DNA from: a virus
DNA: 13,700 bases
Strand: one strand, 5' to 3'
Virus genome (UHGV): UHGV-1812412
Of this stretch, positions 1 to 13,700 are shown in pieces. The notes under the pieces were generated by a model. The model was not told where the DNA came from. It did not search any database and saw nothing but the letters and a program-made list of their open reading frames with translations. Position 1 is the stretch's first letter; every line of letters starts with the position of its first letter. Made by a program: the position numbers and the translations under genes.

Positions 1-660
1 AAGGCTAAAGAGTTCGGCATGACCGGATCAGAGGTTGGCGAGCTTATCGGGAAACTGGTAGTCGGCTTAGCTGGTCTGAAAGTTATTACTACACTGCTTT
101 CCCCTCTAACCGGATTTGTTTCACTTGTCACCCAACTGATTTCTCTGATAGGCAAGATTCCAGGTCTGGGCAATCTCGTTAAGGGTGCTGGCGGGGCAGT
201 CGCTGGAAGCCCAACAACAGCATTAGCCGCTGGCAGTGCCGCAGGTGTGGGTGTTGGTGTCGCTGGCGCACTGGGCGCTAAGACGGTAGGCGAGAAGTTC
301 AGAGGATGGATGCAAAGCAAGGCTGATCAGTTCGGGGAGTGGGCTAAATCTAAAGGCCTGCTTAGCGATGAACAGGACGCTATGACCAAACCGGGGGCCT
401 ATAACCATAGCTACATCAACAAGGGGGCTTCCTTTAATCCATATCCAACCATTAGCCCGTCACGTCCTACTCCTAGCACTGGTACGGCTATTCAGAATGG
501 TGGCTATCAACCTGCTCAGGTTAATGTGGTGCCTCAAGGTGAGATTTCCGGCAAATGGGAGATAACTATTGATGAGGGGGGAATTGCCAGGGTGATCCAG
601 AAGGAAGTCAGCGATCAGTTGGATTGGAAAGCCACACAGGAATCTAACCAGCTTTTCTAA
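1..660 (+). CDS. Partial CDS (5' end outside window): C-terminal part of a phage tail tape-measure-like protein
   Basis: Frame 1 is open from position 1 (AAG GCT AAA GAG TTC GGC precede the first ATG at 19), stop TAA at 658-660. Product has two hydrophobic helices followed by a Gly/Ala-rich segment (GAGGAVAGSPTTALAAGSAAGVGVGVAGALGA), a pattern typical of tape measure C-terminal regions. Assignment is by composition only. Confidence 0.45.
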   Translation, partial: KAKEFGMTGSEVGELIGKLVVGLAGLKVITTLLSPLTGFVSLVTQLISLIGKIPGLGNLVKGAGGAVAGSPTTALAAGSAAGVGVGVAGALGAKTVGEKFRGWMQSKADQFGEWAKSKGLLSDEQDAMTKPGAYNHSYINKGASFNPYPTISPSRPTPSTGTAIQNGGYQPAQVNVVPQGEISGKWEITIDEGGIARVIQKEVSDQLDWKATQESNQLF

Positions 661-768
661 TGTCCACTCTGTGGATTTGAGTTCTACTCAAACCTGCATA
701 GCAGGCACTAATATTGTGATCTAAATCAATAAGTTAGCCTGACCGGATAAACTCCAGGCAAGAAAAAA

Positions 769-793
769 GCCCCTAAGTGTTAACAAAGGGGCT
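769..793 (-). terminator. Hairpin terminator oriented for minus-strand transcripts
   Basis: GCCCC (769-773) pairs with GGGGC (788-792) around a 14-nt loop; an A-tract at 762-768 on the + strand gives a U-tract after the hairpin on the - strand. Lies about 435 nt downstream of the last minus-strand gene. Confidence 0.45.
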
Positions 794-824
794 CTTCTCC
801 GGTATCCTTTTGATGCGGGGCAAA

Positions 825-1227: not shown

Positions 1228-1686
1228 TTAGCCTCTCCCCACATTTGACCAATATTTGATTGCACCGATCAAATCATCATAGTGGCGCATGGCATCATTG
1301 AAGCCTTTATAGCTTGCCCATTGTGGGGAAACCTTGTTATTGCTGAATTGCCCACTAATCAGGATAGTCTCCAAAATGTCGGCGTATCGCTTGCCAATTC
1401 GCTTTCTGACGGCCTCAGAGCTCCCACCCTTTACGATTGCATTAATCAGGGCTTTTGTGTGTCTCAGGCTCTCATAGAGCATTGCAGCGTGGGCAGATTC
1501 CATAAAGGAGCGCTTAGGCAGATCACCCCACCCCTCAGAATGAATTGCTGCCAGTGTGGCGTAATTCAGGCCGCTATAGTGCTTTCCGTCATCCCAGCCA
1601 ACCGCTACACCTTCCATCTGTGAGAGCTCTTTATGCAGCTTATCCATCATGCGCTTGTCTATGGTGCAACGGACTTTCGGACTCAT
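1228..1686 (-). CDS. Hypothetical phage-associated protein, 152 aa
   Basis: Intact ORF; its ATG (1686..1684) overlaps the stop of the upstream gene in an ATGA arrangement (translational coupling); GGAGA 7 nt upstream. No family recognised. Confidence 0.55.
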   Translation of the reverse strand: MSPKVRCTIDKRMMDKLHKELSQMEGVAVGWDDGKHYSGLNYATLAAIHSEGWGDLPKRSFMESAHAAMLYESLRHTKALINAIVKGGSSEAVRKRIGKRYADILETILISGQFSNNKVSPQWASYKGFNDAMRHYDDLIGAIKYWSNVGRG

Positions 1687-2513
1687 TTGTTGATCTCCGT
1701 GATGTCATCGAGCAACATGTTGGCCTTATCAATCATCGTTTCGTGGAACTCATTCGACACAACAGACTTATCACCTGCGGCAATCTTTCCAGCAGCCTCT
1801 CCCTGTGCATATTCCCCGCGATGCTTAGCCCTGGTTGATTTCGTAGCAGCGTTGCCAGCGTTGCTACCCTCTTTAGCACTATTAACAGCACCCTTTTGCT
1901 GTGTTTTATTCACCTTCTTACTGTTAGTGAAAACTCCGGCATTTTCGACCATCTTCACCTTGAAGGTGCGGAATTCTTCAAAAGTGCAATCAATAGTGAT
2001 GCAGTCACCAGAGGAAGAGCTACGCTTAACTTCACATTTCGTCATGATGAAGTTCTCAAGGAGTCCGGCATCTTCACTTACCAGGCTAACAAGCTGGCGC
2101 TTGTCTCTCATTTCTATAAGTGCCTGAACAGCGGCGGCAGGGCGCATAGATTCACGGGGATTATCTGGATCAGTGTTCCGGTCGATGTAGTTCTCTTTCC
2201 GGATGATATGAGGGGAAGAGGTAATAATGCCCGTAAAGCTGACAGATTTATCTTTAATGACGGCATGGTCTGACATGGTGGTGCCATCCTCGACCGCATA
2301 GCTCGATTTCTCAACAGGGAACGAATAGCTGACATCAGAGATAGAGTCAAAGAAGATAGCCACATTATCGGTATAGTTGAAGCCATCCATTATATTTTTG
2401 TTTTGTGAATATCCCCCACACATAACAGTGAATGCAGGAGATCTCGACTCAGCTTGTTTTGCAGCTGTCAGAGCATCACTAGCCATAGTAAACATGCCTC
2501 CAAATTGGTCCAC
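1683..2513 (-). CDS. Hypothetical protein, 276 aa, with a Lys/Ala/Gly-rich low-complexity C-terminal region
   Basis: Intact ORF coupled to the downstream gene. The first ATG at 2513 has no usable Shine-Dalgarno; an in-frame ATG at 2486 has GGAGG 10 nt upstream and may be the true start. No family recognised. Confidence 0.55.
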   Translation of the reverse strand: MDQFGGMFTMASDALTAAKQAESRSPAFTVMCGGYSQNKNIMDGFNYTDNVAIFFDSISDVSYSFPVEKSSYAVEDGTTMSDHAVIKDKSVSFTGIITSSPHIIRKENYIDRNTDPDNPRESMRPAAAVQALIEMRDKRQLVSLVSEDAGLLENFIMTKCEVKRSSSSGDCITIDCTFEEFRTFKVKMVENAGVFTNSKKVNKTQQKGAVNSAKEGSNAGNAATKSTRAKHRGEYAQGEAAGKIAAGDKSVVSNEFHETMIDKANMLLDDITEINK

Positions 2514-2645
2514 TTCATGGATTTGGCTAAAGCCAAACCTGCAAAAGATGCAGGCAAAATAGAACTTATCGTTGCCCTGCTTAAAATCTGCAGAAAATAC
2601 AGGGCAGTTATTCGTTAGAATCGCTTATAGCTCTTCCCGAGAGCG

Positions 2646-2897
2646 TTATTTTGCAAAACGGTTATGGGCATTCAGGGCTTTTTTGCGGTCCTGGGCTTGT
2701 TTGCGTGCAATAAAATGTTCGAAAGTCTCGGCCCAGGTGCATTTATTATATTCACGGTACTTATGCATAGCCTGGCGGCTAACGTCATAGCAGGCGGCAA
2801 ATGTGGAGATACGCAGAAATTCCGGCAGATCCTCGTCATCGATATGGATAATATCAAAAGGCACGTCGTCACGGTCGCCGTATAAAACAATTTTCAT
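2646..2897 (-). CDS. Small protein, 83 aa, possible helix-turn-helix DNA-binding protein
   Basis: ORF track starts at a GTG at 2906; the in-frame ATG at 2897 has GAGGTG 6 nt upstream. Segment ISTFAACYDVSRQAMHKY resembles an HTH. Function not established. Confidence 0.5.
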   Translation of the reverse strand: MKIVLYGDRDDVPFDIIHIDDEDLPEFLRISTFAACYDVSRQAMHKYREYNKCTWAETFEHFIARKQAQDRKKALNAHNRFAK

Positions 2898-2931
2898 AAA
2901 AGACACCTCAAAAACTTAAGACGGGGATAAT

Positions 2932-2980
2932 AAAAAAGGGAAGAGGGAAAGACCTATCCCCGATCTCTCACCTCTTCCCT
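2932..2980 (-). terminator. Rho-independent terminator immediately downstream of the capsid-like gene
   Basis: 9-bp stem GGGAAGAGG (2938-2946) / CCTCTTCCC (2971-2979) with a 24-nt loop; A6 at 2932-2937 on + gives a U-tract after the hairpin on the - strand. T-rich on the + side too (2980-2994), so possibly bidirectional. Confidence 0.6.
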
Positions 2981-3010
2981 TTGCTTTTATTTGGCCTTCG
3001 AAGAAGGACC

Positions 3011-4054
3011 TTATTTAGCCTTGGCTTTTGCCAGAGCAGCGGCGGCGGAGTTACTAACACTCACTTTAACCACAACCTCAGGCATCATGTTCATGAAAGC
3101 ATAAGAGGATTCAATGAAGATTTCTCGTTTACCTCTGGACTCTTCCATATACATGAAAGCTTCACGTGCAGCGCCGTTTGCAAGCTTCAGGTTGCGAGCG
3201 CAAGGGCCGAAAAATTGAGTATAAACGCCCACCATATCGCCTAACGCATGTGGCTGGAATTGTGGGACCAGATAAGCAGTATTCTCTGGCAGACTATCCA
3301 TTTGCACCACACGCAGAGCTAAGCCCGGAATGCGGAAGGTCGGGAAGCCCGGCAGAATATCCTCAGGGAACATCAGACCTTTATCGGTAATATTCTGATT
3401 GCCGAACAACAGCACTTTACGGAGCAGTTCATCAGTCTGAATAGCGGCGAACACCTCAGCACGGCAGAACAGGGTGAAACCACGCAGAGCGCGAACGACA
3501 CCACGCTGTTTAACCTTGCTCAGTGCAACCAGGTCCTGCAGTTGTTTGAGAATATCTTGAGCTAGATCCATTTCAGAGGTGGACTGTTCCACGCCCAGCA
3601 GTTCGCACACATTCAGCTCTTTACCCTTGGTGAGGATAATTTTGTTCTCAAAGAGAGCAAGCTGGCGTGCTTCTTCGTGGGTCTGGCGTAAGCCTTCGCC
3701 CAGTTGAATAACACGACGAGCGGTTACAGACTCTAAATTCTCTTCGGAATCTTTGCCCGGAACACGGATACCTTGCCAGTCAGAAGGATAAATAGCACTT
3801 GATGCGGCAGTGAATGCCATATCACCCGTGCCCGTTTCACGCTCATCTGCGGTAATGGTCGCCATCTGTTCACCGTAGCGCGGATACTGACCGAAAGCGG
3901 TTTGTTTCACCTGGCGAACTTTGTCATATTCAAATTTAAAGGTATTGCACAGAGCAGTAGTGTTGAAGATATCCATTGCTGAAATAATCTGGTTATCCAG
4001 CGGGATGTCTTTAATCAAGCCACACAGATCGCGGACTTCGAATTCTTTTTTCAT
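3011..4054 (-). CDS. Putative phage major capsid protein (lambda gpE-like), 347 aa
   Basis: Long ORF; ATG at 4054 with GGAGG 6 nt upstream (ORF track begins at a TTG at 4060). N-terminal MDIFNTTALCNTFKFEYD and C-terminal IESSYAFMNMMPEVVVKVSV resemble lambda gpE (TTAQLL...KFKFD; MIQSAPLMLLADPDEFVSV) as recalled from memory, not search-verified. Followed by a strong terminator, as expected for a highly expressed capsid gene. Confidence 0.55.
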   Translation of the reverse strand: MKKEFEVRDLCGLIKDIPLDNQIISAMDIFNTTALCNTFKFEYDKVRQVKQTAFGQYPRYGEQMATITADERETGTGDMAFTAASSAIYPSDWQGIRVPGKDSEENLESVTARRVIQLGEGLRQTHEEARQLALFENKIILTKGKELNVCELLGVEQSTSEMDLAQDILKQLQDLVALSKVKQRGVVRALRGFTLFCRAEVFAAIQTDELLRKVLLFGNQNITDKGLMFPEDILPGFPTFRIPGLALRVVQMDSLPENTAYLVPQFQPHALGDMVGVYTQFFGPCARNLKLANGAAREAFMYMEESRGKREIFIESSYAFMNMMPEVVVKVSVSNSAAAALAKAKAK

Positions 4055-4065
4055 CTCCAACCTCC

Positions 4066-4401
4066 TTATTGTGCAACACGCAAATCGCCATTGCTGGCAG
4101 CGATAACAGCGGCTAAGCCTTCTTTATCCACGTAGGCCGGATTGATATAACAGCCCTTGTTGGCAACAACGATAAAAGCATCACCAACCTCAGCACGTTC
4201 TACAACCAGCAGCGGAGTTTTATCGGTGTGCGTTTCTTTAACGAAGGTCTCAACCTCGCCAGCCTCAGTCACCACAACAACAGTGCCAGCCGGAATCTCA
4301 GCTTTAACTTTGTTTTTAATTTCAACGTCGCGAATACTAAATTGCTCATCTGCGGCGTATGAAATGATGTGTCCGCGTGTGCGGATAGTCATATCTCTCA
4401 T
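4066..4401 (-). CDS. Putative head decoration / capsid accessory protein, 111 aa
   Basis: ORF ends 11 nt before the capsid start; AGGTGA 6 nt upstream of its ATG. Size and position directly upstream of the capsid gene fit a decoration or cement protein. Function is by context only. Confidence 0.45.
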   Translation of the reverse strand: MRDMTIRTRGHIISYAADEQFSIRDVEIKNKVKAEIPAGTVVVVTEAGEVETFVKETHTDKTPLLVVERAEVGDAFIVVANKGCYINPAYVDKEGLAAVIAASNGDLRVAQ

Positions 4402-5215
4402 TTGATCACCTGCGATTTAAATTAACTCCCCTCAAAGAGTTCCGGTATAACCTCTCAAACCACGACGCTCGGGCCGAAAAGTTATGCCGGAAATCTAAAG
4501 GGAAATTGATACAAGGAGAGGGAGATAGCCCCGCACCGTCCAAGCGGGGGCTATTCCATATGGGGAAAACCAACAACAGTTGGCTGATAGTTCACAGTAT
4601 GGGTTACTAGAGAGCACTATCACGAAAGACACTCCCCCGAATCAGTTCAGGCTGCGGTCACATCAGCGGGGAAATACCTTTCGGGATAGCTACCCACACA
4701 GAAAACCCGCAAAAGAAAACTGTGTGGATAACTAGCCCAATAGGAGAATTAATCGACCACTCAACGATGATCAGGGTAGTGTTATTTATAAGGCGGCACC
4801 GCTACCTGGTCGCCTTTACTTTGGAGGAAAATACGGCAAATCAAGATCTTCTCACAATGATATTGACGCCATACTGTATATTATATCAGTATTTACTCAC
4901 ATTGTCAACACCCTGATTATATAAATTCTAATAATTAGCGTAGTAACGGTATTTTCAGACCTCTATCAATCCCATCAATACGTCACCCCACCCTTTAGAT
5001 GCATACATCCGACCTACTTTGTAGGCTTGGCGTACTGCCAAGGTCGCAGCTATGCGACTCCTATCTATCACCACTTTATAAAGCTTGATAGATATCCGTT
5101 GATCAATATCAATGTTTTCCGGGGATTTACCCGGCTATAGTTCGAATCAAGGAAGGGGAGCATTGATAGCACCCAACCGAGCAAACAAATCAACTTCTCG
5201 CAAAAGGTTATAGAT

Positions 5216-5338
5216 ATGGGTATCAAGAACAGTGCCAGCGCATGGCAAAAGGCCAGGTTTCATCACCCACACATGGTTAAGGCAATTGAGGTGGTTGGAG
5301 TTTTAGCCCTGATGTTAGCTCTGTGTGTGGAGGTGTGA
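5216..5338 (+). CDS. Micro-ORF, 40 aa, hydrophobic C-terminus (MGIKNSASAWQKARFHHPHMVKAIEVVGVLALMLALCVEV)
   Basis: ATG preceded by AAAGG 8 nt upstream inside a 17-nt leader motif that is duplicated before the membrane protein gene; its stop is 1 nt before the next ATG. Confidence 0.25.
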   Translation: MGIKNSASAWQKARFHHPHMVKAIEVVGVLALMLALCVEV

Positions 5339-5339
5339 G

Positions 5340-5420
5340 ATGGGCAAAGGAGGCAAAGCATTTTTAATAGGTCTGGCAGTCTTAGATTTTGTATTAATCA
5401 TCATTGAGCGGAGTTTATGA
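5340..5420 (+). CDS. Micro-ORF, 26 aa, single hydrophobic helix (MGKGGKAFLIGLAVLDFVLIIIERSL)
   Basis: ATG at 5340 with GGAGG 6 nt upstream; its stop overlaps the ATG of the following HTH gene (ATGA at 5417-5420). Confidence 0.25.
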   Translation: MGKGGKAFLIGLAVLDFVLIIIERSL

Positions 5421-5677
5421 CGGGAACTAAAGATATTAAGAGACTGAGGGAAGAGCTGATAGCTGAAATTAAAGCGAAGGCAAAGCAAATGGAGATAGCC
5501 GCACAAATGGATGTAGCGGAACAGATGTACAAGATGGTTGAGGAGGGAACGCCACGACAGGTTATAGCAAAAACCTTCGGTGTGGGGATCGCCACCGTGC
5601 ACAGAAGGCTGAAAGCCTATGCCGACTACCACAATATCGAGAGAAAGGAGGATGGGAGATTTAAGAAGAATAAATAG
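5417..5677 (+). CDS. Small DNA-binding protein with resolvase/invertase-type helix-turn-helix, 86 aa
   Basis: Segment TPRQVIAKTFGVGIATVHRRLK matches the pattern of the Hin/Gin-type C-terminal HTH (PRQ-LA-FG-G-ST--R, recalled from memory); N-terminal half predicted coiled coil. No catalytic recombinase domain present. Confidence 0.65.
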   Translation: MTGTKDIKRLREELIAEIKAKAKQMEIAAQMDVAEQMYKMVEEGTPRQVIAKTFGVGIATVHRRLKAYADYHNIERKEDGRFKKNK

Positions 5678-5769
5678 TGTGAACAGTCCAATAGGTTAAG
5701 CTCTGGCTCATAGCCCTCGCCTCGAGGGTGTTATTAACTAAATTCAACTTCTCGCAAAGGGGTACCATT

Positions 5770-6291
5770 ATGTTATTTCAGAAAGATAAAGAATCAGAAA
5801 ACAAAAAGCTTTTTAAAGCAATAGTAAAAATGTTCTTTCAGTACACTGCAGCGTTTTTGATAGCCGGGCCTTGGTTAATGGCTATCTGTTTTTACCCTGC
5901 TACCTTGTTTATTGGCAGTAGCAAGTTCGGCGATGGCCCGTTTCATGTGGATATTGGTTTTATAGATTCTCTCCTGATCCGTCCTATAAATGCTGTTCTC
6001 AATGCTTTCTACTTCCCCACTAGTCTAGAGGGGTGGTCGGTAACCTGGGGTGTTTTAGGCTTAGCATATGTATATTGGTTGGTTGGCTTTTTGTGGGGTG
6101 CAATCTGTGCTCTCCTCGATATTGATACAGGATCAAGCCGTAGGAGTGGTGGTAATAATAGCGGAGCGGGTGTATATGCACACGTAGGTACCAGAGGGGT
6201 AAGTATCACCGCAGGTACCCGATTCGCTGGCGGCTGGCTGAGCATAGGCAAACGCGGCGTTAGTTGGAGAAAAAGCAAAAAACTGTTCTGA
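5770..6291 (+). CDS. Membrane protein, 173 aa from ATG 5770, with at least two hydrophobic helices and a Gly-rich basic tail containing a repeated G-x-R-G-V-S motif
   Basis: ORF track starts at a GTG at 5728; the ATG at 5770 has AAGGGG 7 nt upstream. Hydrophobic helices FFQYTAAFLIAGPWLMAICFYPATLFI and WGVLGLAYVYWLVGFLWGAICALL; tail has GTRGVS and GKRGVS. Terminator directly downstream. Confidence 0.6.
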   Translation: MLFQKDKESENKKLFKAIVKMFFQYTAAFLIAGPWLMAICFYPATLFIGSSKFGDGPFHVDIGFIDSLLIRPINAVLNAFYFPTSLEGWSVTWGVLGLAYVYWLVGFLWGAICALLDIDTGSSRRSGGNNSGAGVYAHVGTRGVSITAGTRFAGGWLSIGKRGVSWRKSKKLF

Positions 6292-6298
6292 CCTACCA

Positions 6299-6322
6299 GG
6301 GGGGCCATCACGGCCCCTTTTT
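6299..6322 (+). terminator. Rho-independent terminator after the membrane protein gene
   Basis: GGGGCC (6301-6306) / GGCCCC (6312-6317) stem with 5-nt loop, followed by TTTTT (6318-6322). Confidence 0.7.
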
Positions 6323-7636
6323 ATTTATCCCTCAATTAACCCCTATTTATCCCCTATTTAATGCCTATTTATTGATTTAATCCGTTTTATGCCACAACCG
6401 CCCGGTTGACAGAGTAAGAGAGAGGGTGTAACCCTTTTTCGTAATACCAATAAAATCAATAGCTTAGCTCAATTGGCCTTTTCTCTGTTTTTGTCAAATT
6501 TAACATACCCTCAAAAACTGCAAAATCTGGCTGCAAGATTATCTGCAGCTGGATTTCTTACACCTCAATTTGTGGTATCACCCTGACTAGTTTGTGCATA
6601 AAATGAACAGTTTTTAACATTTCCTCCTCACCTGGTAACCACACAAAAAGCTAAAAACGAGGCACAGATAATCTTAGAGGCCTGTTTTCTTGTTATCACT
6701 CTGGGAACGTCGTAGAAGTGATTTTGATGAAAGACGGCCTACCCTATTACACCCCCATTTTTTGTTATCACAATTGCATCCTGTGCGGTATATGACTATG
6801 TGCTGAAAGCGGTCTCAGGTGTTGGTGTCAGAAATATCCATTAGCGGTATTTGAGCTTATGGGTAACTCGTCTGAGGTGCCAGGCAGGCGCTCCCCTACC
6901 TCCCCTTTTTCTTCTAACAATTCTCAAATATCACACCACTGCCCACCACGTTGCTATTATGTTAATTCTTAAGCTTTGCTGTATGTTGTGCACATTATTT
7001 ATTCAGATGCATGTACGTAAATTCTGTGCCCACTGATCATGATTTTTAAATCAGATTTTGTAGTGCGCTTTATTAGTGTAGATAAGATCTATTATGTTAA
7101 ATGCAATTTTCCCAACCCTTCAAATCAATGACTTACATGTAAGCATGCACTAACACCCCACACAGCACATTAGACGTGTAGATGTCTATATCCCACATTT
7201 TTGATTGTTTTGTAGTCATTCCCCTGATCATTTAACCAGTATAGTTTGCTCTCTGCAGACCACAAAATCGGAATTTACATCTGATTAACATAATCTGTTA
7301 GCATGATCACCATTACCCACACAACAATAACCCCATGCAAGCCTCTTCAGGCAATTTATCGGCGTGTTGGTGTGAACAGTCTTTCATGTTCTTTATGTAT
7401 TCATGACTGCAAGGAATGTATTCATTGGCCTGTGTGGGGGAAGGATGGACTGCCTCAGGGGCCATACTTATGATGCCCGGTCAACATAGCTGTTGATAAA
7501 ATCAATGGGTGTTGATCTGCGTATTTCCCACACATGAGAGGAAATCAAAGCAAAGAGAGAGGAGAGAGGTTTGTTAGTCAAAATAGGTCAATTGACGGCT
7601 AATACAGAGTAAAAAATCAGATGCAATCACTCCCCC

Positions 7637-7819
7637 ACCTGTTGGGATTTCCCTCACCTGTATAAGAATACAGTCATACTTTCCCGTTATACGGTCATAC
7701 ACATGATGGAATAACCTGTTGGAATTTCCCACAGGTTCAACCATACATAAGCATTAACCTGTTGGAATTTCCTACTACTACCTGTCGGTATTTCCCACAG
7801 GTACCTGTTGGAATTTCCC
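7637..7819. repeat. Iteron array: five direct copies of a 17-mer ACCTGTYGGWATTTCCC
   Basis: Copies at 7637-7653, 7714-7730, 7757-7772, 7780-7796, 7803-7819; the last three are exactly 23 bp apart. Two copies are followed by the inverse ACAGGT. Partial copies of the ATTTCCCACA core at 7522-7534 and 8321-8333. Confidence 0.75.
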
Positions 7820-7911
7820 ACACTAATAGATAAAGAGAATAGATTAATAAAAAGATACCCCCCTAACCCCCCAGGGGGAATGGGGAGGGATCAGAGAGTG
7901 GGGAAGGTTTT

Positions 7912-8014
7912 CTAGATGTACGTAATTGGTACACTTAAAGGTGGATAATATGAGGCTAGATGTACGTAATTGGTACACTTAGAATATTCTAGATGTACGT
8001 AATTGGTACACTTA
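7912..8014. repeat. Three identical 26-bp direct repeats CTAGATGTACGTAATTGGTACACTTA, each with an internal dyad TGTAC-N7-GTACA
   Basis: Copies at 7912-7937, 7956-7981, 7989-8014; start-to-start spacing 44 and 33 bp (multiples of about 11, same helical face). A near DnaA box GGTGGATAA lies at 7940-7948. Confidence 0.8.
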
Positions 8015-8339
8015 AATCACATAAGTTATTGAGTTTATTAGAAAAAGTGATTCACCTATATATACTACTGATTCGCCTCCGCTCATCATTAGTATGGTGT
8101 AACTGATTCATGCTTCGCTTACGCTCACATTCATCTACTTACACCCCCTTATCTGAATTGAACATTCCCGTCCAATCCAGCTAAGAGAATTGATTGAACA
8201 TTACCTAACATCCGTTAGCTAACATTCTAATCAATTAACTACTTAATCACTTCCACACCTTCCGGTGGTGCCAAGTGTCCTGGCATGGTGGGAAAAGATT
8301 CTGCCGTTTTAGGTAGAATTGATTTCCCACAAATAGTAA

Positions 8340-8660
8340 GTGTCGGCCCTTCAATGTCACTCTCCTATGAGGGGGAGAGATGACGGGCCTCCTGTGTGGG
8401 TGAGTATCGGAGCAGTCTGTGAAGTATGAGCAGGCTGTGAGATACGCTACTGTATATCTGCGTAGAACAGCCTCCGCTGTTTACGCTCTTTGTGTGGGTC
8501 CGGCGAATGCGACAGCATGAGGCCCACATGTGGACCGCTGCCGAAAGCTTGCCAGCGCCGGAAGGAGGCGGCAAAGAGTCTCCCGCGCGGTTGTAGGTCC
8601 GCGCCGGACTTTAACTTACAGTTAAACCCTTCGGGCTTGTGCGGGTGCACGCACACATAT
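8340..8660. other. GC-rich, hairpin-dense non-coding island, candidate structured RNA or DNA processing site
   Basis: Sharp rise in GC relative to AT-rich flanks. Local stems include TCTCC/GGAGA (8361-8379), GCGCGG/CCGCGC (8585-8604), TTTAAC/GTTAAA (8609-8625) and GTGCG/CGCAC (8639-8654). The only ORFs are two overlapping Arg/Pro/Ser-rich minus-strand frames without RBS. Confidence 0.3.
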
Positions 8661-8843
8661 ATATAAAGGATACACTCATAAATCGAAAATAAGCGCGATT
8701 TTAGCGCCTACAGCGAGATAAACTATACTCCCTAGTGTAATTGCATTACCTGATGCTTAAATCGCGTTGTAGGGCCTCTCATGAGGTTTGAGTTTAACAC
8801 CCTCCAAAGTTTTAACAAAAAGTGCTCTCCCTCCATTGTGGGC

Positions 8844-9013
8844 CATTGACAATCTTATTGCATAAATGCTATAAGTTATTCTGATTTTGACACGGTAGGG
8901 GCCATTAATAATGCTTACCCCTTTGCTGTGGACTTGCTTGTGTCTGCTGTGCAGGCTATGGCACCTATAGCTCGCCTAAATGATAATGATTCCTATTGAC
9001 AATTGGTTGTCAA
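8844..9013 (+). promoter_or_regulatory. Operator-like 9-bp palindromes ATTGACAAT overlapping -35-like TTGACA hexamers; candidate tandem promoters
   Basis: ATTGACAAT at 8844-8852 and 8995-9003; the second is part of an 18-bp dyad TTGACAA-TTGG-TTGTCAA (8996-9013). Possible promoters: TTGACA 8846-8851 + 18 nt + TATAAG 8870-8875; TTGACA 8996-9001 + 17 nt + TAAGAT 9019-9024. Confidence 0.4.
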
Positions 9014-9059
9014 TATGATAAGATTATAGATAGTGGGAGAAACAGATCCGGAGGTCAAC

Positions 9060-9584: not shown

Positions 9585-10454
9585 ATGAATATTAAGTCTG
9601 TTTTTAATATAACTTTAAATGATGATCCTAGTATCCTTTTGCTGCCTATGCTCATAAACAAATCTGGACTATTAAAAAAAGGCGACGCAAGGGATATTTA
9701 TATTTATATGTGGAATATTTACTATCTCAACGCTAAAAAAGAGGCCGCCAAGGTGTTCAGTAAGAAGACTAAAGGAAGAAGCCTCAGTCAGGATATGAAA
9801 GATTCCATAAGAAAAGAATGTTTTGCAATTAATGATAAAGATTCCTGTGTGGAAATCTCTTATAAGGATATAGAGGAAAGAGTAGGAATATTACGACCAC
9901 ACGCAGTAAGGGCAATTAAAAAGCTGGAATCTGAAGGAATTATCACCTGCCTTAAAAAAGGCAATAAGCATAACCCTTATGCATCATGGCAAATTAATGT
10001 CGGAATCTTTGAAATGATGGAAAGAGTAGGGATTGAAAACCTCATTGGGTGGGATCTCTTAAAACCATATTGGAAGAAAGAACAGGAAGCAGCCGGAAGA
10101 GGGGAGGGGGATAAAGCCCCGCAAGAAGCCCCAAAACAGGCCGCACAGCAAGCTAAAAAGGCCGAGGTGGTGCAGTTCCCTTCTACGAAAGATAAGAGCG
10201 TCAGAATCGAGCGTAGCTCTCATCCTGAAAGTGTGACAACGTCACCTGTTAAGACAAACAATGAAGGGCCAGTGAAAGAGATACCCAAAATTATAGACAT
10301 TTCTTCTTTTATGGCAGATGAGGAAGATATGCAAGATGAGTGGTGGACACCTCCAGAAAATAATGATTATGGTTATGATCCTTATGGCTATGATGAAGAT
10401 GAATATAGCCCGTTTGAAGATGAATATATAAATGATTCCGCTATCCCTTATTAA
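9585..10454 (+). CDS. Winged-helix DNA-binding protein, 289 aa, with a Lys/Ala/Gln-rich linker and an acidic, aromatic C-terminal tail; candidate replication initiator or regulator
   Basis: AAGAGGT 7 nt before the ATG. Segment ISYKDIEERVGILRPHAVRAIKKLESEGIITC has the classic winged-helix pattern seen in replication initiators and MarR-like regulators; C-terminus DEEDMQDEWWTPPENNDYGYDPYGYDEDEYSPFEDEY. Function inferred. Confidence 0.75.
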   Translation: MNIKSVFNITLNDDPSILLLPMLINKSGLLKKGDARDIYIYMWNIYYLNAKKEAAKVFSKKTKGRSLSQDMKDSIRKECFAINDKDSCVEISYKDIEERVGILRPHAVRAIKKLESEGIITCLKKGNKHNPYASWQINVGIFEMMERVGIENLIGWDLLKPYWKKEQEAAGRGEGDKAPQEAPKQAAQQAKKAEVVQFPSTKDKSVRIERSSHPESVTTSPVKTNNEGPVKEIPKIIDISSFMADEEDMQDEWWTPPENNDYGYDPYGYDEDEYSPFEDEYINDSAIPY

Positions 10455-10542: not shown

Positions 10543-11028
10543 ATGTTCAAATCTGATCTTTCTGATTCCCAATTTGAAAAACTGGTAGCACTGCAGAAAT
10601 ATCTCCCCAGTGATGATCAACCAACACGACAGGCCAAACACTTATTAGTCGAGGGCTTTACCCCTGAATTCGTAGCGGAATATACAGGCGTTAAACTTGA
10701 GAAAGTCCAAAAACTATATAATGAGTCCTGGAATCCACGGTGTCGAGTTCCCCTCAGTGTCTATAACGAAATAGATAGAGATAAAAATGTCTTCGAAGAT
10801 CGCCGCCGCAAATCTCTTTTAATGTGGAATTGCGGGATGAATATTGAAGAGATAGCAAAAGAATTAAAAGTAACCTGCTTTCATATTTGGGGCTTGTTGA
10901 GTGAAATCCTGCCACGTAAGGAGCTTAATCAACGTTTGCCTAAGCCCGGTAGTCGTGCTTATCGCGAATTTATATTCATCTACCGCCGCCATAGCAATAA
11001 AGTCCGGAAAGCAATGCAGCGCAAATAG
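10543..11028 (+). CDS. Hypothetical protein, 161 aa, with two HTH-like segments and a basic C-terminus
   Basis: GGAGA 7 nt before the ATG; HTH-like segments FTPEFVAEYTGVKLEKVQKLY and MNIEEIAKELKVTCFHIWGLL. Could be a small terminase subunit-like or regulatory protein; not resolved. Confidence 0.7.
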   Translation: MFKSDLSDSQFEKLVALQKYLPSDDQPTRQAKHLLVEGFTPEFVAEYTGVKLEKVQKLYNESWNPRCRVPLSVYNEIDRDKNVFEDRRRKSLLMWNCGMNIEEIAKELKVTCFHIWGLLSEILPRKELNQRLPKPGSRAYREFIFIYRRHSNKVRKAMQRK

Positions 11029-11116
11029 CTTATAGCCTTCACATATGCCGCAAGTTATTGATTCTGCCGTCCGGTAAATATGCCGGATGGCTCATATAAA
11101 TTTTAAGGAATTCCAA

Positions 11117-11560
11117 ATGTCTCAAATCGCTAAATTACTATCCCAGGTTATCAAAGCTATCGACGCTGAAGATTCAAAAGTTCGCCAGGATCTTTTAGAT
11201 GGCAAGTTTACCAATACTCTGGCATTTACCCGTGACAAAGAGCACTTCTTAGAGCACAAACATCCCGCCTTTGTTGAATGCAAGTCCGCTAATGGTGATG
11301 TTTTCTATGTCGATTTGGTGGTTATGGCTATGCGCCTGTGGATGATTCAGGACCTTATGCGCCAACACGGTGATGATCCTCTTATCAGCATGTGGAACAG
11401 CGCCCAGGATGGCTTTGTGATTGCTGCCTTATCCAAATCCATGATTGAGGCAGAAGGCGCAAGCCTTCAAAACATGGCAGATCTCTTTGAAATAAGCGTA
11501 GGAATGATGCAGACCATGCTGCAGGCGGTGAAGCCTCTCAAGCTGGTTAACCTTGAATAA
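11117..11560 (+). CDS. Hypothetical protein, 147 aa
   Basis: ORF track begins at an ATG at 11087 with no RBS; the in-frame ATG at 11117 has AAGGAA 6 nt upstream. Followed by a terminator. Confidence 0.65.
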   Translation: MSQIAKLLSQVIKAIDAEDSKVRQDLLDGKFTNTLAFTRDKEHFLEHKHPAFVECKSANGDVFYVDLVVMAMRLWMIQDLMRQHGDDPLISMWNSAQDGFVIAALSKSMIEAEGASLQNMADLFEISVGMMQTMLQAVKPLKLVNLE

Positions 11561-11606: not shown

Positions 11607-11638
11607 TACTTTTCACGTTTATCTAAAAGGATATGCCT

Positions 11639-12022
11639 ATGAATATTGAAGAAATGATAGTTGAATTCGATGATGGTGATTTCCTGGAAGATGGGGAGTT
11701 TAAATACTCCCGTTTTAAACAGGCGTTATTTAGCAGCGATGATAAACCCCACGTTAGTGATCTAAATGACGATGATTTATGTCGCTGGGTATGCACCCGC
11801 TTATATGAGGATGGAAAATATACAGGCCAAAACTTTCCAAATCTCTATTTCAAAGCACAAACATTTGAGGAAGGGCAAAGAGTGAAAAACCTGGTCGATA
11901 AAATGCTGTCAGCCGGATATTTGCATAAAGAATTATTAAATCCTAAAGCTGAAAGCAAGCGCCATTATATTTTTGTGTGGACTATTGGCGATAAGTGTCC
12001 ACTAAGACGCAAAGGCAAATGA
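11639..12022 (+). CDS. Acidic protein, 127 aa, in the position of a tail assembly chaperone
   Basis: ATG at 11639 has AAGGA 8 nt upstream (the ATG at 11633 is too close to it). Product is strongly acidic at the N-terminus; sits two genes upstream of the tape measure gene, as gpG-like chaperones do. Inferred from position and composition. Confidence 0.55.
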   Translation: MNIEEMIVEFDDGDFLEDGEFKYSRFKQALFSSDDKPHVSDLNDDDLCRWVCTRLYEDGKYTGQNFPNLYFKAQTFEEGQRVKNLVDKMLSAGYLHKELLNPKAESKRHYIFVWTIGDKCPLRRKGK

Positions 12023-12023
12023 T

Positions 12024-12209
12024 ATGAATACCTACGAAAAGATTTATCAAAAATTAAAAAGTGATAACAATGCTCCCGTCATCAAGGGCGGGGCTTCTTC
12101 CTCTGGTGACCTCTCAATCGAAGAGCTTGCGGAGAAATATAATATTGATAAAGAGGCCCTGAAAAGGGCTATTTCATTATCAAAATCTTTAAGACAGGGC
12201 GAGGTGTAA
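12024..12209 (+). CDS. Small protein, 61 aa, immediately upstream of the tape measure gene
   Basis: ATG 1 nt after the stop of the preceding gene (TGA-t-ATG); ends 3 nt before the tape measure ATG. Could be independent or the extension part of a frameshifted chaperone. Confidence 0.45.
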   Translation: MNTYEKIYQKLKSDNNAPVIKGGASSSGDLSIEELAEKYNIDKEALKRAISLSKSLRQGEV

Positions 12210-12212
12210 GAG

Positions 12213-13700
12213 ATGGCAATGAAGGAAGTCGCCAGACTAACAAACGTTATTTACTGGGATTCTGATAAATCCAGCTGGCGAAAAGAAGTTAAACGGCTTG
12301 AGGATTATAAAAAATCCTGGAAGAAAGCCACCGACGATATAGCTAAAGCTGATTTTAAATCTAATCAGGCTGTGCTCAGAACACAAAGAACACGCGCTAA
12401 GGTGGAAGAGCAGATTGCCAGAGCTCAGAGGAAACAACAGGAAGCACAGAAGAAACAACGTGCTCAGGCTGTCAGCCGTCTGACCGGGGGCAACAATGCC
12501 GAACTTAACTCTATGCGCAAGTTCTATCAGCAGCAAGCCAGAGAGGCCGCCAGACAACAAAAACTGTTAGATCGTAGTGTTGGAGATGTTCAGCACAGAA
12601 AAGCACGTGTAGGGGCCAACAGTGCACGAATTAGCGGCATGTTTGATGGCTCTATCGTCTCCCAGTTCCAGGGGCGCATTCAAAGAGTTAATGCTGATTA
12701 TGCTAAAGGGGCTATAAACCTGCAGACCTATAATCAGAGGATGGCTCGGCTCAGAGCTGAAATGAAGATGGCAACAGCAGAGGCCGGAAAATTTCAGAGC
12801 AGACTGGATAAACTGGCATCAGGTGCCAGCAAGGTGCATGACAACCTGGGCAAAATCAACTCCACACTAGGCAAGATAGCCATTGGCCTTACTGCCGCTG
12901 GCTGGGGTGTTCAGCGTGCTGTTAGTGGTGCTATGGGTAGCCTTGCAGATCGCAACAGTGCCTACTTCGGTTTAATGGCTCAGAACAAGGATGATAAAGC
13001 CAAGACTGATCAGCAGATGGCTTTTATCAAGAACACAGCCTACACCTATGGGATGGATGAGCGGGAGATGCAAGGGGGCTACATGCGCTTTGCTGCAGCT
13101 ACTCCCACCATGAAGGAATCTGATAAGCAGGCTCTTTTTGAGGCTATGGCTATTAAAGGTCGCTCAGTGGGTGCTACTGGCGAGCAACAGAACAGGGCGC
13201 TTGTTGCGGTCCAACAAATGGCTTCAAAGGGAAAAGTTATGGCAGAAGAGCTGCGGGGCCAACTGTCAGAAGCCTTTGCAGGCTCACAACAGGATTTTCA
13301 ACAGGCCGCTATTGATGCCGGAATCATCAAGAATGCCCAGGAATTCGATAAAGCCCTTAAAGATGGCAAAATCACCCTGGACAAACTTCTTCCTTCTCTG
13401 GTGAAAATCTGGGGTGCAGCAAAAGAAACTAAAGCTTTTGCTGAATCCATGAAACAACCGGAAGTAGCACTGCAGCGCATGAAAAACAGCTTTAACGAGC
13501 TGGCGATTCAGTTTATGGGTGTTGTGGATCCTGCGGATGGCGTTATTAGCTTATCTGAATCTCTGATCTCCATCTTCGAAGACCTCACCACTGATATGGA
13601 CGGCAGCGGGAGCGCGGCAAAACAGTTCGGTGAGGCAGTCGGGGCTGCCATGCGTGAGATCATGTATTGGGTAGGCTTCGCTAAGGGATATATTGAGGTC
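12213..13700 (+). CDS. Partial CDS (3' end outside window): N-terminal part of a phage tail tape measure protein
   Basis: ATG at 12213 with GAGGTG 7 nt upstream; frame stays open to the window edge (496 codons). Missing from the supplied ORF track because it has no stop in the window. Coiled-coil N-terminus, then NRALVAVQQMASKGKVMAEELRGQLSEAF, which matches the conserved tape-measure domain pattern. Confidence 0.8.
   Translation, partial: MAMKEVARLTNVIYWDSDKSSWRKEVKRLEDYKKSWKKATDDIAKADFKSNQAVLRTQRTRAKVEEQIARAQRKQQEAQKKQRAQAVSRLTGGNNAELNSMRKFYQQQAREAARQQKLLDRSVGDVQHRKARVGANSARISGMFDGSIVSQFQGRIQRVNADYAKGAINLQTYNQRMARLRAEMKMATAEAGKFQSRLDKLASGASKVHDNLGKINSTLGKIAIGLTAAGWGVQRAVSGAMGSLADRNSAYFGLMAQNKDDKAKTDQQMAFIKNTAYTYGMDEREMQGGYMRFAAATPTMKESDKQALFEAMAIKGRSVGATGEQQNRALVAVQQMASKGKVMAEELRGQLSEAFAGSQQDFQQAAIDAGIIKNAQEFDKALKDGKITLDKLLPSLVKIWGAAKETKAFAESMKQPEVALQRMKNSFNELAIQFMGVVDPADGVISLSESLISIFEDLTTDMDGSGSAAKQFGEAVGAAMREIMYWVGFAKGYIEV

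What the first reader, a model, noticed from the sequence alone, without database searches (positions are those of the whole stretch)
1228..4401. Capsid-like operon without portal, protease or terminase partners, convergent with the tape measure gene
In lambda-like phages the decoration and capsid genes sit between the protease/scaffold genes and the head-tail joining genes, all co-oriented with the tail genes. Here the capsid-like block starts from non-coding DNA and runs toward the end of a tape-measure-like gene. This points to a remnant prophage, or a satellite-like element keeping only some structural genes. The three downstream proteins (83, 276, 152 aa) are unassigned.
Basis: inference. 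Interest (0 to 1): 0.55.

Follow-up and report, generated by a model that had tools for sequence, protein, structure and literature searches.

The report
Probable plasmid satellite of rV5-like phages
The capsid-like operon is real, but it sits on a complete 13.7-kb circular E. coli plasmid carrying only a handful of virion genes related to those of rV5-like lytic phages. It is therefore most likely an undescribed plasmid-borne phage satellite, not a decayed prophage.

Summary
The window is a whole circular replicon: the tape-measure frame reads through the window end into its start. Complete E. coli plasmids of 13.2-13.7 kb are 91-96% identical to it, and none of 5,426 complete E. coli genomes has a chromosomal copy. 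The circle holds only four reading frames longer than 200 codons, so a portal or large terminase cannot be hidden.

The minus-strand operon encodes:
- a 111-aa partner protein;
- an HK97-fold, gpE-family capsid protein;
- an 86-aa protein;
- a myovirus tail-tube initiator, 51% identical to that of Vequintavirus (rV5-like phages);
- an Ne1 neck protein, 45% identical.

The tape measure is 27% identical and the capsid protein 25% identical to the Vequintavirus counterparts. Diverged lineages keep the same genes, with dN/dS of 0.02-0.13, so this is not a remnant.

A structured non-coding element beside iteron-like repeats is 85-88% identical to an origin-like intergenic region found in 119 Vequintavirus records.

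Best reading (about 0.55): a plasmid-resident satellite of rV5-like virulent myophages. It would be unusual in encoding tail-core proteins. No packaging or transfer evidence exists, and I found no paper describing it.

The parts
4880..4908 (-). Perfect sigma-70 consensus promoter (TTGACA, 17 nt, TG-extended TATAAT) for the capsid operon
   Evidence: 12 of 12 matches; sequence read
4402..4872 (-). Long, highly structured 5' leader of the capsid operon, about 470 nt. It contains a CCACACAG...CTGTGTGG hairpin and one TATAAATA.
   Evidence: MFE -167.6 kcal/mol, z = -5.7, 0 of 100 shuffles as stable
4066..4401 (-). 111-aa protein immediately upstream of the capsid gene. It is a conserved partner of the capsid protein (decoration- or scaffold-like by position only).
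   Evidence: Homologues occur only in this plasmid family. hhalign gives 91% probability to the 107-aa protein upstream of the capsid gene in the deep lineage L017. No similarity to the rV5 decoration protein. The AF2 model is unusable, pLDDT 45.
3011..4060 (-). Major capsid protein, HK97 fold, divergent gpE family
   Evidence: phrog_29 E = 8.9e-22. 28 of 31 aligned relatives hit PF03864. The profile hits the Phi92, PhiTE and ICP1 capsid proteins in the PDB. AF2 pLDDT 85. Foldseek top hits are myovirus capsids. 24.7% identity over the full length to the Vequintavirus capsid protein.
2944..2961 (-). Terminator-like hairpin with a T-run just after the capsid gene (a partial stop, as in rV5-like phages)
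2646..2906 (-). 86-aa protein of unknown function, conserved in position (81 aa in L009, 53 aa in L017)
1683..2513 (-). Tail-tube initiator (Dit-like) of myovirus type
   Evidence: PF21821 E = 1.6e-25. phrog_5197 E = 1e-107. PDB PhiTE tube initiator E = 1.5e-34 and Phi92 gp135. 51% identity to the Vequintavirus tail tube initiator.
1228..1686 (-). Ne1 neck / tail-completion protein
   Evidence: phrog_222 E = 7.9e-29. 44.7% identity to Vequintavirus bas57_0011 and 48-49% to the Certrevirus homologue. Annotated 'Ne1 neck protein' in rV5_ev156.
758..798 (-). Intrinsic-terminator hairpin with a T-run in the 567-nt convergent spacer. A second terminator-like site lies at 1146-1121 (minus strand).
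12213..13700 (+). Tape measure protein, N-terminal 496 codons. The gene continues across the circular junction.
   Evidence: PF20155 hit in the L009 orthologue. 26.9% identity to the Vequintavirus tape measure over residues 5-502.
1..660 (+). Tape measure protein, C-terminal 219 codons plus stop (715 aa in all)
   Evidence: phrog_5255 E = 3.7e-40
11633..12209 (+). Two small genes (129 aa and 61 aa) directly upstream of the tape measure, in the position of tail assembly chaperones. Homology is not shown.
   Evidence: hhalign against the rV5 tail assembly chaperone is negative.
9585..10454 (+). Winged-helix, Rep-like protein (replication initiator O-like, weak). It is swapped between otherwise near-identical plasmids.
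   Evidence: phrog_391 and phrog_678, E = 3-4e-5. Only 31.6% identical in L001, where neighbouring genes are 95-100% identical.
7637..8016 (.). Iteron-like direct repeats: five copies of 23 nt at 7637-7825 and three copies of 30 nt at 7910-8016. Putative origin of replication.
8338..8612 (+). Structured GC-rich non-coding element shared with Vequintavirus phages. It includes a hairpin at 8345-8389 and a helix pairing 8537-8542 with 8567-8572.
   Evidence: No Rfam family.
5417..6291 (+). HTH regulator (86 aa), divergent from the capsid operon, followed by a variable slot that holds a 187-aa protein here
   Evidence: PF02796 E = 3.6e-6. The slot holds unrelated genes in L006, L009 and L010. No defence-system match.
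10543..11560 (+). Two conserved genes of unknown function (161 aa with weak HTH signals; 157 aa)

Best explanation
The operon belongs to a family of roughly 13.5-kb circular E. coli/Shigella plasmids that are most likely phage satellites (hitchers) of rV5-like virulent myoviruses. The helper is probably of genus Vequintavirus or a close relative.

Shown by computation:
- The element is an autonomous circle with a Rep-like protein and iteron-like repeats.
- It encodes its own HK97-fold capsid protein with a conserved small partner, an Ne1 neck protein, a tail-tube initiator and a tape measure protein.
- It encodes nothing else of a virion: no portal, protease, scaffold, terminase, sheath, tube, baseplate, fibres or lysis genes.

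Inferred:
- In an uninfected cell the element persists as a plasmid.
- When a helper infects, the plasmid is amplified, possibly through the origin-adjacent structured element it shares with the helper.
- Its capsid protein builds small shells on the helper's portal, scaffold and protease. Own estimate: T=4-sized for 13-14 kb.
- The helper terminase fills these shells with plasmid DNA.
- Its own neck, tube-initiator and tape-measure proteins create a private head-tail interface and tail core on helper baseplates, sheath and tube. This would favour satellite particles and probably lower helper yield.
For: 1. Complete circular replicon, plasmid only. The tape-measure frame closes the circle. Seven complete E. 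coli genomes carry it, always as a plasmid, with no chromosomal place among 5,426 genomes. PLSDB scores it non-mobilizable.

2. Only a subset of virion genes is present.

3. Every assignable structural gene has its best or only phage relatives in Vequintavirinae-type myoviruses: tube initiator 51%, neck 45-49%, tape measure 27%, capsid protein 25%. GC content is 44.7% against 43.6% for phage MaxTheCat.

4. It is not decaying. All genes are intact in relatives, with dN/dS of 0.02-0.13 in the operon.

5. The gene order is conserved in deeper lineages. The full gene order recurs in a circular 13.3-kb lineage whose capsid protein is 80% identical. The order small protein, capsid, small protein, tube initiator, convergent with a large ORF, recurs in a lineage whose capsid protein is 29% identical.

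6. Size is tightly held. Nearly all capsid-bearing contigs of the closest lineage (capsid protein at least 92% identical) are 13.4-14.3 kb, and more distant lineages are 13.3-15.9 kb.

7. A non-coding element next to the iteron-like repeats is 85-88% identical to an intergenic element present in 119 Vequintavirus records. In those phages it also follows iterons and a 116-aa protein that some records call a replication initiator. It keeps its helices through compensatory changes.

8. Plasmid-resident Caudoviricetes satellites have a recent precedent in Vibrio (PMC13230959).
Against: - There is no direct evidence of encapsidation or transfer. No match was found in 50,697 phage records by megablast, nor in IMG/VR viral contigs for the capsid protein.
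- No small terminase or pac/cos mimic was identified. Only weak HTH hints exist in the 161-aa and 61-aa proteins.
- A capsid protein only 25% identical to the helper's must still work with the helper's portal, scaffold and protease. This is untested.
- No rV5-type extended -10 motif is enriched in the plasmid, and the capsid operon has a host-type consensus promoter. So helper-dependent induction is not evident.
- Protein identities of 25-51% do not pin the helper to any sequenced phage.
Confidence: 0.55

Rival explanations
1. Assembly-interference (defence) plasmid. The divergent capsid, neck, tube-initiator and tape-measure homologues act as dominant-negative decoys that poison virion assembly of infecting rV5-like phages. 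The plasmid itself is not packaged.
For: The homologues are exactly those of a lytic phage group that infects E. coli. No packaging gene or pac site was recognised. The capsid operon has a strong host-type promoter. Tail- and virion-assembly interference is a known defence strategy (PMC11364771 and PMC10884400, abstracts).
Against: A capsid protein only 25% identical is a poor candidate for co-assembly poisoning. Maintaining five structural genes, including a 715-aa tape measure, under strong purifying selection is costly for a decoy. The narrow size range and the shared origin-like element are not explained. No PADLOC model matches. Interference and satellite spread are not mutually exclusive.
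Confidence: 0.15
2. Satellite of a different, not yet sequenced helper: a temperate or virulent myovirus distantly related to Vequintavirinae. Under this reading the resemblance to Vequintavirus reflects shared ancestry only.
For: Protein identities are only 25-51%. The neck protein is slightly closer to Certrevirus and Pectobacterium phages (48-49%) than to Vequintavirus (44.7%). The deep lineage L017 has a large convergent ORF with no similarity to any known tape measure.
Against: The non-coding element is 85-88% identical at the nucleotide level to Vequintavirus specifically. Both that element and the adjacent 116-aa protein are restricted to the same 119 records. No phage in the 50,697-record collection has closer homologues.
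Confidence: 0.15
3. Decaying remnant of a phage-plasmid or prophage. The structural genes would be leftovers without function.
For: Only a subset of virion genes is present, and 36% of the circle is non-coding.
Against: All genes are intact, with dN/dS of 0.02-0.13 across relatives whose synonymous sites are saturated. The same gene set and size recur in lineages with 80%, 43% and 30% capsid identity. The element is never chromosomal. No complete parental phage was found.
Confidence: 0.05

Closest known systems
PISP and cf-PISP satellite-plasmids of Vibrio crassostreae (PMC13230959, 2026)
   Same: Small circular extrachromosomal elements (11-16 kb) with plasmid maintenance functions and no integrase. 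They carry a partial set of Caudoviricetes head genes, and PISP TG93 carries a 'capsid protein E'. They were proposed on genomic grounds to be phage satellites living as plasmids.
   Different: Those elements lack tail genes and carry a protease, a small terminase and (cf-PISP) portal and adaptor genes. This family has no portal, protease or terminase, but has a tape measure, a tube initiator and a neck protein. The host is E. coli/Shigella. The inferred helper is a virulent myovirus of about 137 kb. No ParA or RepA homologues were detected.
[quoted passage not shown]
   Same: Satellites that encode their own HK97-fold capsid protein and build satellite-sized capsids.
   Different: cf-PICIs are integrated islands. 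They carry a full head module (portal, protease, connectors, small terminase) and make tail-less capsids that take helper tails (abstract of 10.1101/2025.02.11.637232). This family has a minimal head set plus tail-core genes and lives as a plasmid.
SaPIbov5 Ccm (cos-type SaPI)
   Same: A satellite-encoded homologue of the helper's major capsid protein that redirects capsid size and shape (PMC8569155, abstract).
   Different: SaPIs are chromosomal and integrase-dependent, parasitise temperate siphoviruses and carry no tail genes. Whether the capsid protein here co-assembles with the helper's or replaces it is unknown.
PLE of Vibrio cholerae (helper ICP1) and PICMI of Vibrionaceae
   Same: Satellites of virulent phages. 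ICP1 is a myovirus with a gpE-family capsid protein that is among the closest structural matches to this capsid protein. PICMIs are minimal and package as concatemers (abstracts).
   Different: Both are chromosomal islands and encode no capsid or tail structural homologues. PLE remodels the helper's coat protein with the external scaffold TcaP (PMC10002752).
P4 (helper P2)
   Same: It can persist as a plasmid and is packaged by a myovirus helper into a small capsid (PMC7552001, abstract).
   Different: P4 encodes no capsid or tail homologues. It uses Sid, Psu, delta, epsilon, the alpha primase-helicase and an integrase, none of which is detectable here.
Plasmids carrying T4 replication origins (own knowledge: Kreuzer and Alberts, 1980s)
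   Same: A plasmid that shares an origin element with a virulent phage is replicated by the phage machinery after infection and packaged as concatemers. This is a possible analogue for the shared origin-adjacent element.
   Different: Those were laboratory constructs. Here the sharing is natural, and its function is untested.

Membership tests
gpE-family / HK97-fold major capsid protein (PF03864) | Sequence membership in Phage_cap_E | tested here: inconclusive
   The window protein alone gives no Pfam hit at E <= 0.1. However, 28 of 31 aligned relatives hit PF03864, best E = 1.4e-58, and phrog_29 'major head protein' scores 8.9e-22. It is a divergent member by transitive homology.
gpE-family / HK97-fold major capsid protein (PF03864) | HK97 fold | tested here: met
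   AF2 model with pLDDT 85 and pTM 0.82. Foldseek top hits are the PhiTE, ICP1, Bas63, Sf14 and lambda capsids, E down to 8.7e-20. The profile hits Phi92 gp124 at E = 2.4e-56.
Myovirus tail-tube initiator (Dit_like, PF21821) | Dit-like N-terminal domain above the Pfam gathering score; homology to solved tube initiators | tested here: met
   90.1 bits against a cut-off of 24.2. PDB 9cuy PhiTE tube initiator E = 1.5e-34 and Phi92 gp135.
Phage satellite (general) | Lacks a complete virion gene set while keeping its own replication and maintenance | tested here: met
   Whole-circle gene inventory. Complete circular plasmid records exist. Rep-like protein and iteron-like repeats are present.
Phage satellite (general) | Packaged and transferred by a helper phage's particles | not testable with these tools
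   No virion-derived sequence was found. Lysate transduction experiments are needed.
Phage satellite (general) | A specific molecular link to a helper (shared signals or proteins that fit helper parts) | tested here: inconclusive
   Homologues of Vequintavirus neck, initiator, tape-measure and capsid proteins, and a shared origin-adjacent structured element at 85-88% nucleotide identity. The function is untested.
cf-PICI / cf-PISP | Own portal, prohead protease, head-tail connectors and small terminase; no tail genes | tested here: not met
   No portal, protease or terminase in any frame. Tape measure and tube initiator are present.
PICI / SaPI | Chromosomal island with integrase and att sites | tested here: not met
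   No integrase or recombinase gene. The only recombinase-related signal is an HTH_7 DNA-binding domain in an 86-aa protein. There are no chromosomal places in 5,426 genomes.
P4-like satellites | Alpha primase-helicase, Sid/Psu, delta/epsilon, integrase | tested here: not met
   No Pfam, PHROG or NCBIfam matches to any of these.
Phage-plasmid (complete temperate phage replicating as a plasmid) | Full virion, packaging and lysis modules on the plasmid | tested here: not met
   Only five or six virion-related genes on 13.7 kb.
Known anti-phage defence systems (PADLOC) | A match to a defence-system protein model | tested here: not met
   No significant model for the variable-slot genes or other unknowns.

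The most novel reading that the evidence does not exclude
This would be a new class of phage satellite with three unusual properties. It lives as a plasmid in E. coli and parasitises virulent rV5-like myophages, which are common in phage-therapy collections. It is the first satellite known to bring its own tail-core proteins (tape measure, tube initiator, neck) together with its own capsid protein, and so to build a private head-tail interface on borrowed parts. It is plugged into the helper's replication through a shared, previously undescribed structured origin-associated RNA or DNA element.
Probability: 0.35. Interest if true: 0.85.

Novelty: new variant of a known kind. Interest (0 to 1): 0.68.

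Why it matters
If this reading holds, the element extends phage satellites in three directions:
- to plasmids in E. coli;
- to large virulent rV5-like helpers, for which no satellite is reported in the searched literature;
- to satellites that encode tail-core proteins, which the described families lack.

It would also explain how a class of 'non-mobilizable' cryptic plasmids moves between cells. One derivative already carries aminoglycoside phosphotransferase genes (strA/strB-like) and a TetR-family regulator gene.

The system is compact enough to ask which proteins set capsid size, tail length and head-tail specificity.

There is a practical side. Vequintaviruses are used in phage cocktails, so carrier strains could reduce phage yield or spread plasmid DNA during therapy.

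The shared structured non-coding element is a separate lead. It may be a new RNA or origin motif of rV5-like phages.

Tried and rejected
- Megablast of the whole window against 50,697 phage records gave no match. The element is not a deposited phage.
- The capsid protein and its family alignment found no relatives in GTDB species-representative genomes or in IMG/VR. One further look-up was blocked by tool rules.
- The word-indexed search of 5.8 billion proteins found only near-identical E. coli sequences. The exhaustive HMMER search was needed to reach the 43% and 30% lineages.
- 111-aa protein: no Pfam, PHROG, NCBIfam or PDB match. hhalign against the rV5 decoration protein gave probability 0.2%. 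The AF2 model had pLDDT 45 and was unusable, so no fold search was run. 'Decoration' remains positional only.
- The 129-aa protein compared with the rV5 tail assembly chaperone was negative.
- The Ne1 neck protein profile against the PDB gave nothing meaningful.
- Phage-type promoters: T4-like TATAAATA occurs 3 times against 0.7 expected, which is not significant. The rV5 extended -10 motif TGGTAAAATA is not enriched. Helper-driven transcription is therefore not supported by motifs.
- Rfam found no family for the structured element, the leader or anything else. No tRNAs were found.
- PADLOC found no defence system.
- The phage iteron is not present in the plasmid, and the plasmid repeats are not present in the phage. 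Only the structured element is shared.
- Literature: seven searches found no description of this plasmid family or of any rV5 or Vequintavirus satellite.

Full report
**1. The observation**

Upstream lies about 1 kb without ORFs. It contains a perfect sigma-70 consensus promoter, TTGACA-17-TATAAT with a TG extension, at 4908-4880 on the minus strand. A leader of about 470 nt follows, and it folds far better than shuffled controls (z = -5.7). The operon converges on the 3' end of a tape measure gene (phrog_5255, E = 3.7e-40). The two are separated by a 567-nt spacer with terminator-like hairpins.

**2. The window is a whole circular replicon**

The tape-measure reading frame runs without a stop from 12213 through the last base into 1-660, giving a 715-aa protein.

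Megablast finds complete circular E. coli plasmids of 13.2-13.7 kb at 91-96% identity over the full length. Examples are pE275a_13, which at 13,697 bp is almost exactly the window's length, and NZ_CP020521. One 39.6-kb record is a head-to-tail trimer. Among 5,426 complete E. coli genomes, seven carry the element, always as a plasmid and never in the chromosome. PLSDB types the records as non-mobilizable.

The 'missing' morphogenetic genes therefore cannot lie in flanking DNA, because there is none. In six frames the circle holds only four reading frames longer than 200 codons: Rep-like, tape measure, tube initiator and capsid protein. A portal or large terminase cannot be hidden. Only 63.5% of the circle is coding.

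**3. What the operon encodes**

*The 349-aa protein is a capsid protein.*
- phrog_29 'major head protein' scores E = 8.9e-22.
- An exhaustive HMMER scan of 1.84 billion representatives finds only 29 relatives.
- 28 of the 31 aligned sequences hit Pfam Phage_cap_E.
- The family profile hits the solved capsid proteins of Phi92, PhiTE and ICP1.
- The AlphaFold model (pLDDT 85) has the HK97 fold, and its best structural matches are myovirus gpE-type capsids.

*The 276-aa protein is a myovirus tail-tube initiator.* It hits Dit_like PF21821 and the PhiTE and Phi92 tube initiators in the PDB.

*The 152-aa protein is an Ne1 neck or tail-completion protein* (phrog_222; annotated 'Ne1 neck protein' in an rV5 record).

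*The 111-aa protein* has no relatives outside these plasmids and gave no usable model. It does not resemble the rV5 decoration protein. It is, however, homologous to the 107-aa protein that precedes the capsid gene in a very distant lineage (hhalign 91%). It is therefore an old partner of this capsid protein, whether decoration, scaffold or size factor.

*The 86-aa protein* is unassigned.

**4. Relatives point to rV5-like myoviruses, not lambda**

Compared with the annotated Vequintavirus MaxTheCat (Bas57), identities are:

| Plasmid protein | Identity | Phage gene |
|---|---|---|
| Tube initiator | 51% | bas57_0019 |
| Neck protein | 44.7% | bas57_0011 |
| Tape measure | 26.9% over 500 residues | bas57_0018 |
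| Capsid protein | 24.7% over the full length | bas57_0008 |

Searches of 50,697 phage records find no closer phage for any of them. In those phages the genes are co-oriented, in the order decoration, capsid, neck genes, sheath, tube, chaperones, tape measure, initiator. The plasmid has brought the initiator and one neck gene next to the capsid gene and placed the tape measure in the opposite operon. Plasmid GC content (44.7%) is like the phage's (43.6%) and, from general knowledge, below the E. coli chromosome's roughly 51%.

**5. Not a remnant**

A second lineage (L009-L012) consists of contigs of 13.31-13.35 kb. Three of the four (L009-L011) carry 30-nt end overlaps that indicate circularity. 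It has every gene in the same order, with capsid protein 80%, tube initiator 66%, neck 92% and tape measure 84% identical.

dN/dS in the operon is 0.02-0.13, and synonymous sites are saturated in the distant comparison.

Still more distant capsid lineages sit on contigs of similar size. The 43% lineage is on a 13,268-bp contig. The 30% lineage is on E. coli and Shigella sonnei contigs of 13.8-15.9 kb. One partial contig of that lineage keeps the order small protein, capsid, small protein, tube initiator, convergent with a large ORF.

The 90% cluster of the capsid protein alone has 441 member sequences. Conservation of content, order and size across such divergence indicates a functional element.

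**6. Replication and the link to the phage**

The plus-strand side carries several small HTH proteins and a 289-aa winged-helix protein with weak similarity to lambda-O-like initiators.

A 2.7-kb stretch (6300-9030) has no ORF longer than 69 aa. It contains five 23-nt and three 30-nt direct repeats.

Just downstream of those repeats, 8338-8612 is GC-rich. It contains two blocks that are 85-88% identical to an intergenic region of 119 phage records: 97 Escherichia, one Shigella and one Vequintavirinae sp. record, two records named only 'Phage', and 18 rV5-like records deposited as Campylobacter phage. In these phages the element also follows a set of 21-nt iterons and an AT-rich stretch. It lies next to a 116-aa DNA-binding protein that is confined to the same number of records (119) with the same composition by organism name and that some records annotate as a replication initiation protein.

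Alignment of three plasmid and five phage versions supports a plus-strand structure:
- 96% of cells are paired, against about 40% when partners are slid.
- Six pairs show compensatory double changes. For example, GCTGCC/GGCGGC in the plasmid becomes ACCGAC/GTCGGT in phages, and CTCTCC/GGAGAG becomes CTCGCC/GGCGAG.
- None of 500 shuffles reaches the observed covariation score.

Rfam has no such family. In the divergent plasmid lineage the core block is 93% identical, while the flanks are 67-80%.

I read this element as an origin-associated RNA or DNA structure shared by plasmid and phage. It is the most specific tie to Vequintavirus, but its function is inferred, not shown.

**7. Mechanism proposed**

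*Shown:* the element is a circular plasmid with a minimal set of structural genes homologous to those of a virulent myovirus group, it is under purifying selection, and it shares an origin-adjacent element with that group.

*Inferred:*
- It is a satellite that waits as a plasmid.
- It is amplified on infection.
- It uses its own capsid protein, with the 111-aa and perhaps the 86-aa protein, to build small shells on the helper's portal, scaffold and protease. From my own knowledge, the satellites P4 (11.6 kb) and SaPI1 (about 15 kb) use T=4 shells, so 13-14 kb fits that size. Alternatively, ten copies fill a 137-kb helper head.
- It is packaged by the helper terminase.
- It uses its own neck, initiator and tape-measure proteins to make tails that fit its heads.

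The last point would give the satellite a private head-tail interface and would probably cost the helper progeny.

*Weak points:* no terminase small subunit or pac mimic was found, no virion-derived sequence exists, no phage-type promoters were detected, and no sequenced phage is close enough to be named the helper with confidence.

**8. Comparison with known systems**

The nearest concept is the satellite-plasmids (cf-PISP and PISP) proposed in 2026 for Vibrio crassostreae (PMC13230959). Those lack tail genes and carry protease, terminase and portal genes.

cf-PICIs, SaPIs (including the capsid homologue Ccm of SaPIbov5), P4, PLE and PICMI each share one feature with this family. Each fails on defining features tested here (see the membership table).

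Seven full-text searches found no description of this plasmid family or of any satellite of rV5-like phages. [quoted passage not shown]

**9. Verdict**

- Novelty: a new variant of a known kind, a phage satellite with a plasmid lifestyle, a virulent rV5-like helper and tail-core genes.
- Confidence in the satellite reading is about 0.55. The main rivals are an assembly-interference plasmid that is not itself transferred, and a satellite of an unsequenced relative of Vequintavirus.

Noticed in passing
window 8338-8612 (+); phage MaxTheCat MZ501094.1 131600-131800 (L005 31600-31800): A structured GC-rich non-coding element is shared at 85-88% nucleotide identity between this plasmid family and 119 Vequintavirus records. 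It has six compensatory base-pair changes and no Rfam family. In both plasmid and phage it lies just downstream of iteron-like repeats. It may be a new origin-associated RNA or DNA motif.
   Followed up: partly
window 7637-7825 and 7910-8016: Two sets of direct repeats: five 23-nt copies (ACCTGTTGGAATTTCCCACAGGT) and three 30-nt copies (TTCTAGATGTACGTAATTGGTACACTTAAA). The 23-mers are kept in plasmid L001. The 30-mers are absent from L001 and L009, whose Rep-like proteins also differ.
   Followed up: partly
window 9585-10454 versus L001 5517-6437: The Rep-like gene is only 31.6% identical between two plasmids whose other genes are 95-100% identical. The adjacent part of the non-coding region is also replaced. 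This looks like a swapped replicon module.
   Followed up: partly
window 2415-2422, 4693-4700, 5266-5273, 7157-7164, 7316-7323, 7431-7438, 7527-7534, 8393-8400, 8491-8498: The octamer TGTGTGGG occurs 9 times against 0.34 expected (0 of 200 shuffles reach 9). Most copies are in non-coding DNA, including the capsid-operon leader and the shared structured element. It occurs 20 times in phage MaxTheCat, with a cluster in that phage's unannotated 90.0-92.6 kb region.
   Followed up: partly
L006 (NTNY01000053.1, 30,105-bp contig) 13452-21041: A derivative of the element carries an insertion between the neck gene and the tape measure gene. The insertion holds two aminoglycoside phosphotransferase (APH) genes (strA/strB-like), a DDE transposase and a TetR-family regulator gene. 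This roughly doubles the element's size.
   Followed up: no
L002 (NZ_CP043822.1, 39,610 bp): This record is a head-to-tail trimer of the element. The three copies differ mainly by small indels and broken ORFs. It may be a true multimer or a long-read assembly artefact.
   Followed up: partly
window 5728-6291: There is a variable gene slot after the 86-aa HTH gene. It holds a 187-aa protein here and unrelated 233-, 165- and 186-aa proteins in L006, L009 and L010. None matches Pfam (window protein only), NCBIfam or PADLOC models. It could be an accessory or defence hotspot, as in P4.
   Followed up: partly
window 4402-4872 (-): The 5' leader of the capsid operon, behind a perfect consensus promoter, is unusually stable (z = -5.7). 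This suggests post-initiation control such as attenuation, antitermination or a processing site.
   Followed up: partly
phage MaxTheCat MZ501094.1 90,051-92,584 (L004 40051-42584); window 6909-6932: The phage has a 2.5-kb stretch with no annotated gene. A 24-nt segment of it (91576-91599) is 96% identical to window 6909-6932, which lies inside the plasmid's own 2.7-kb ORF-free region.
   Followed up: no
phage collection records MG0656xx: About 18 records named 'Campylobacter phage' carry rV5-like genes and the shared element at the same identity as E. coli Vequintaviruses. They look like mislabelled or contaminating rV5-like genomes.
   Followed up: no
window, whole: Only 63.5% of the circle is coding, which is unusually low for a plasmid or phage-derived element. 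The two large ORF-free stretches are 4402-5416 and 6292-9032.
   Followed up: partly
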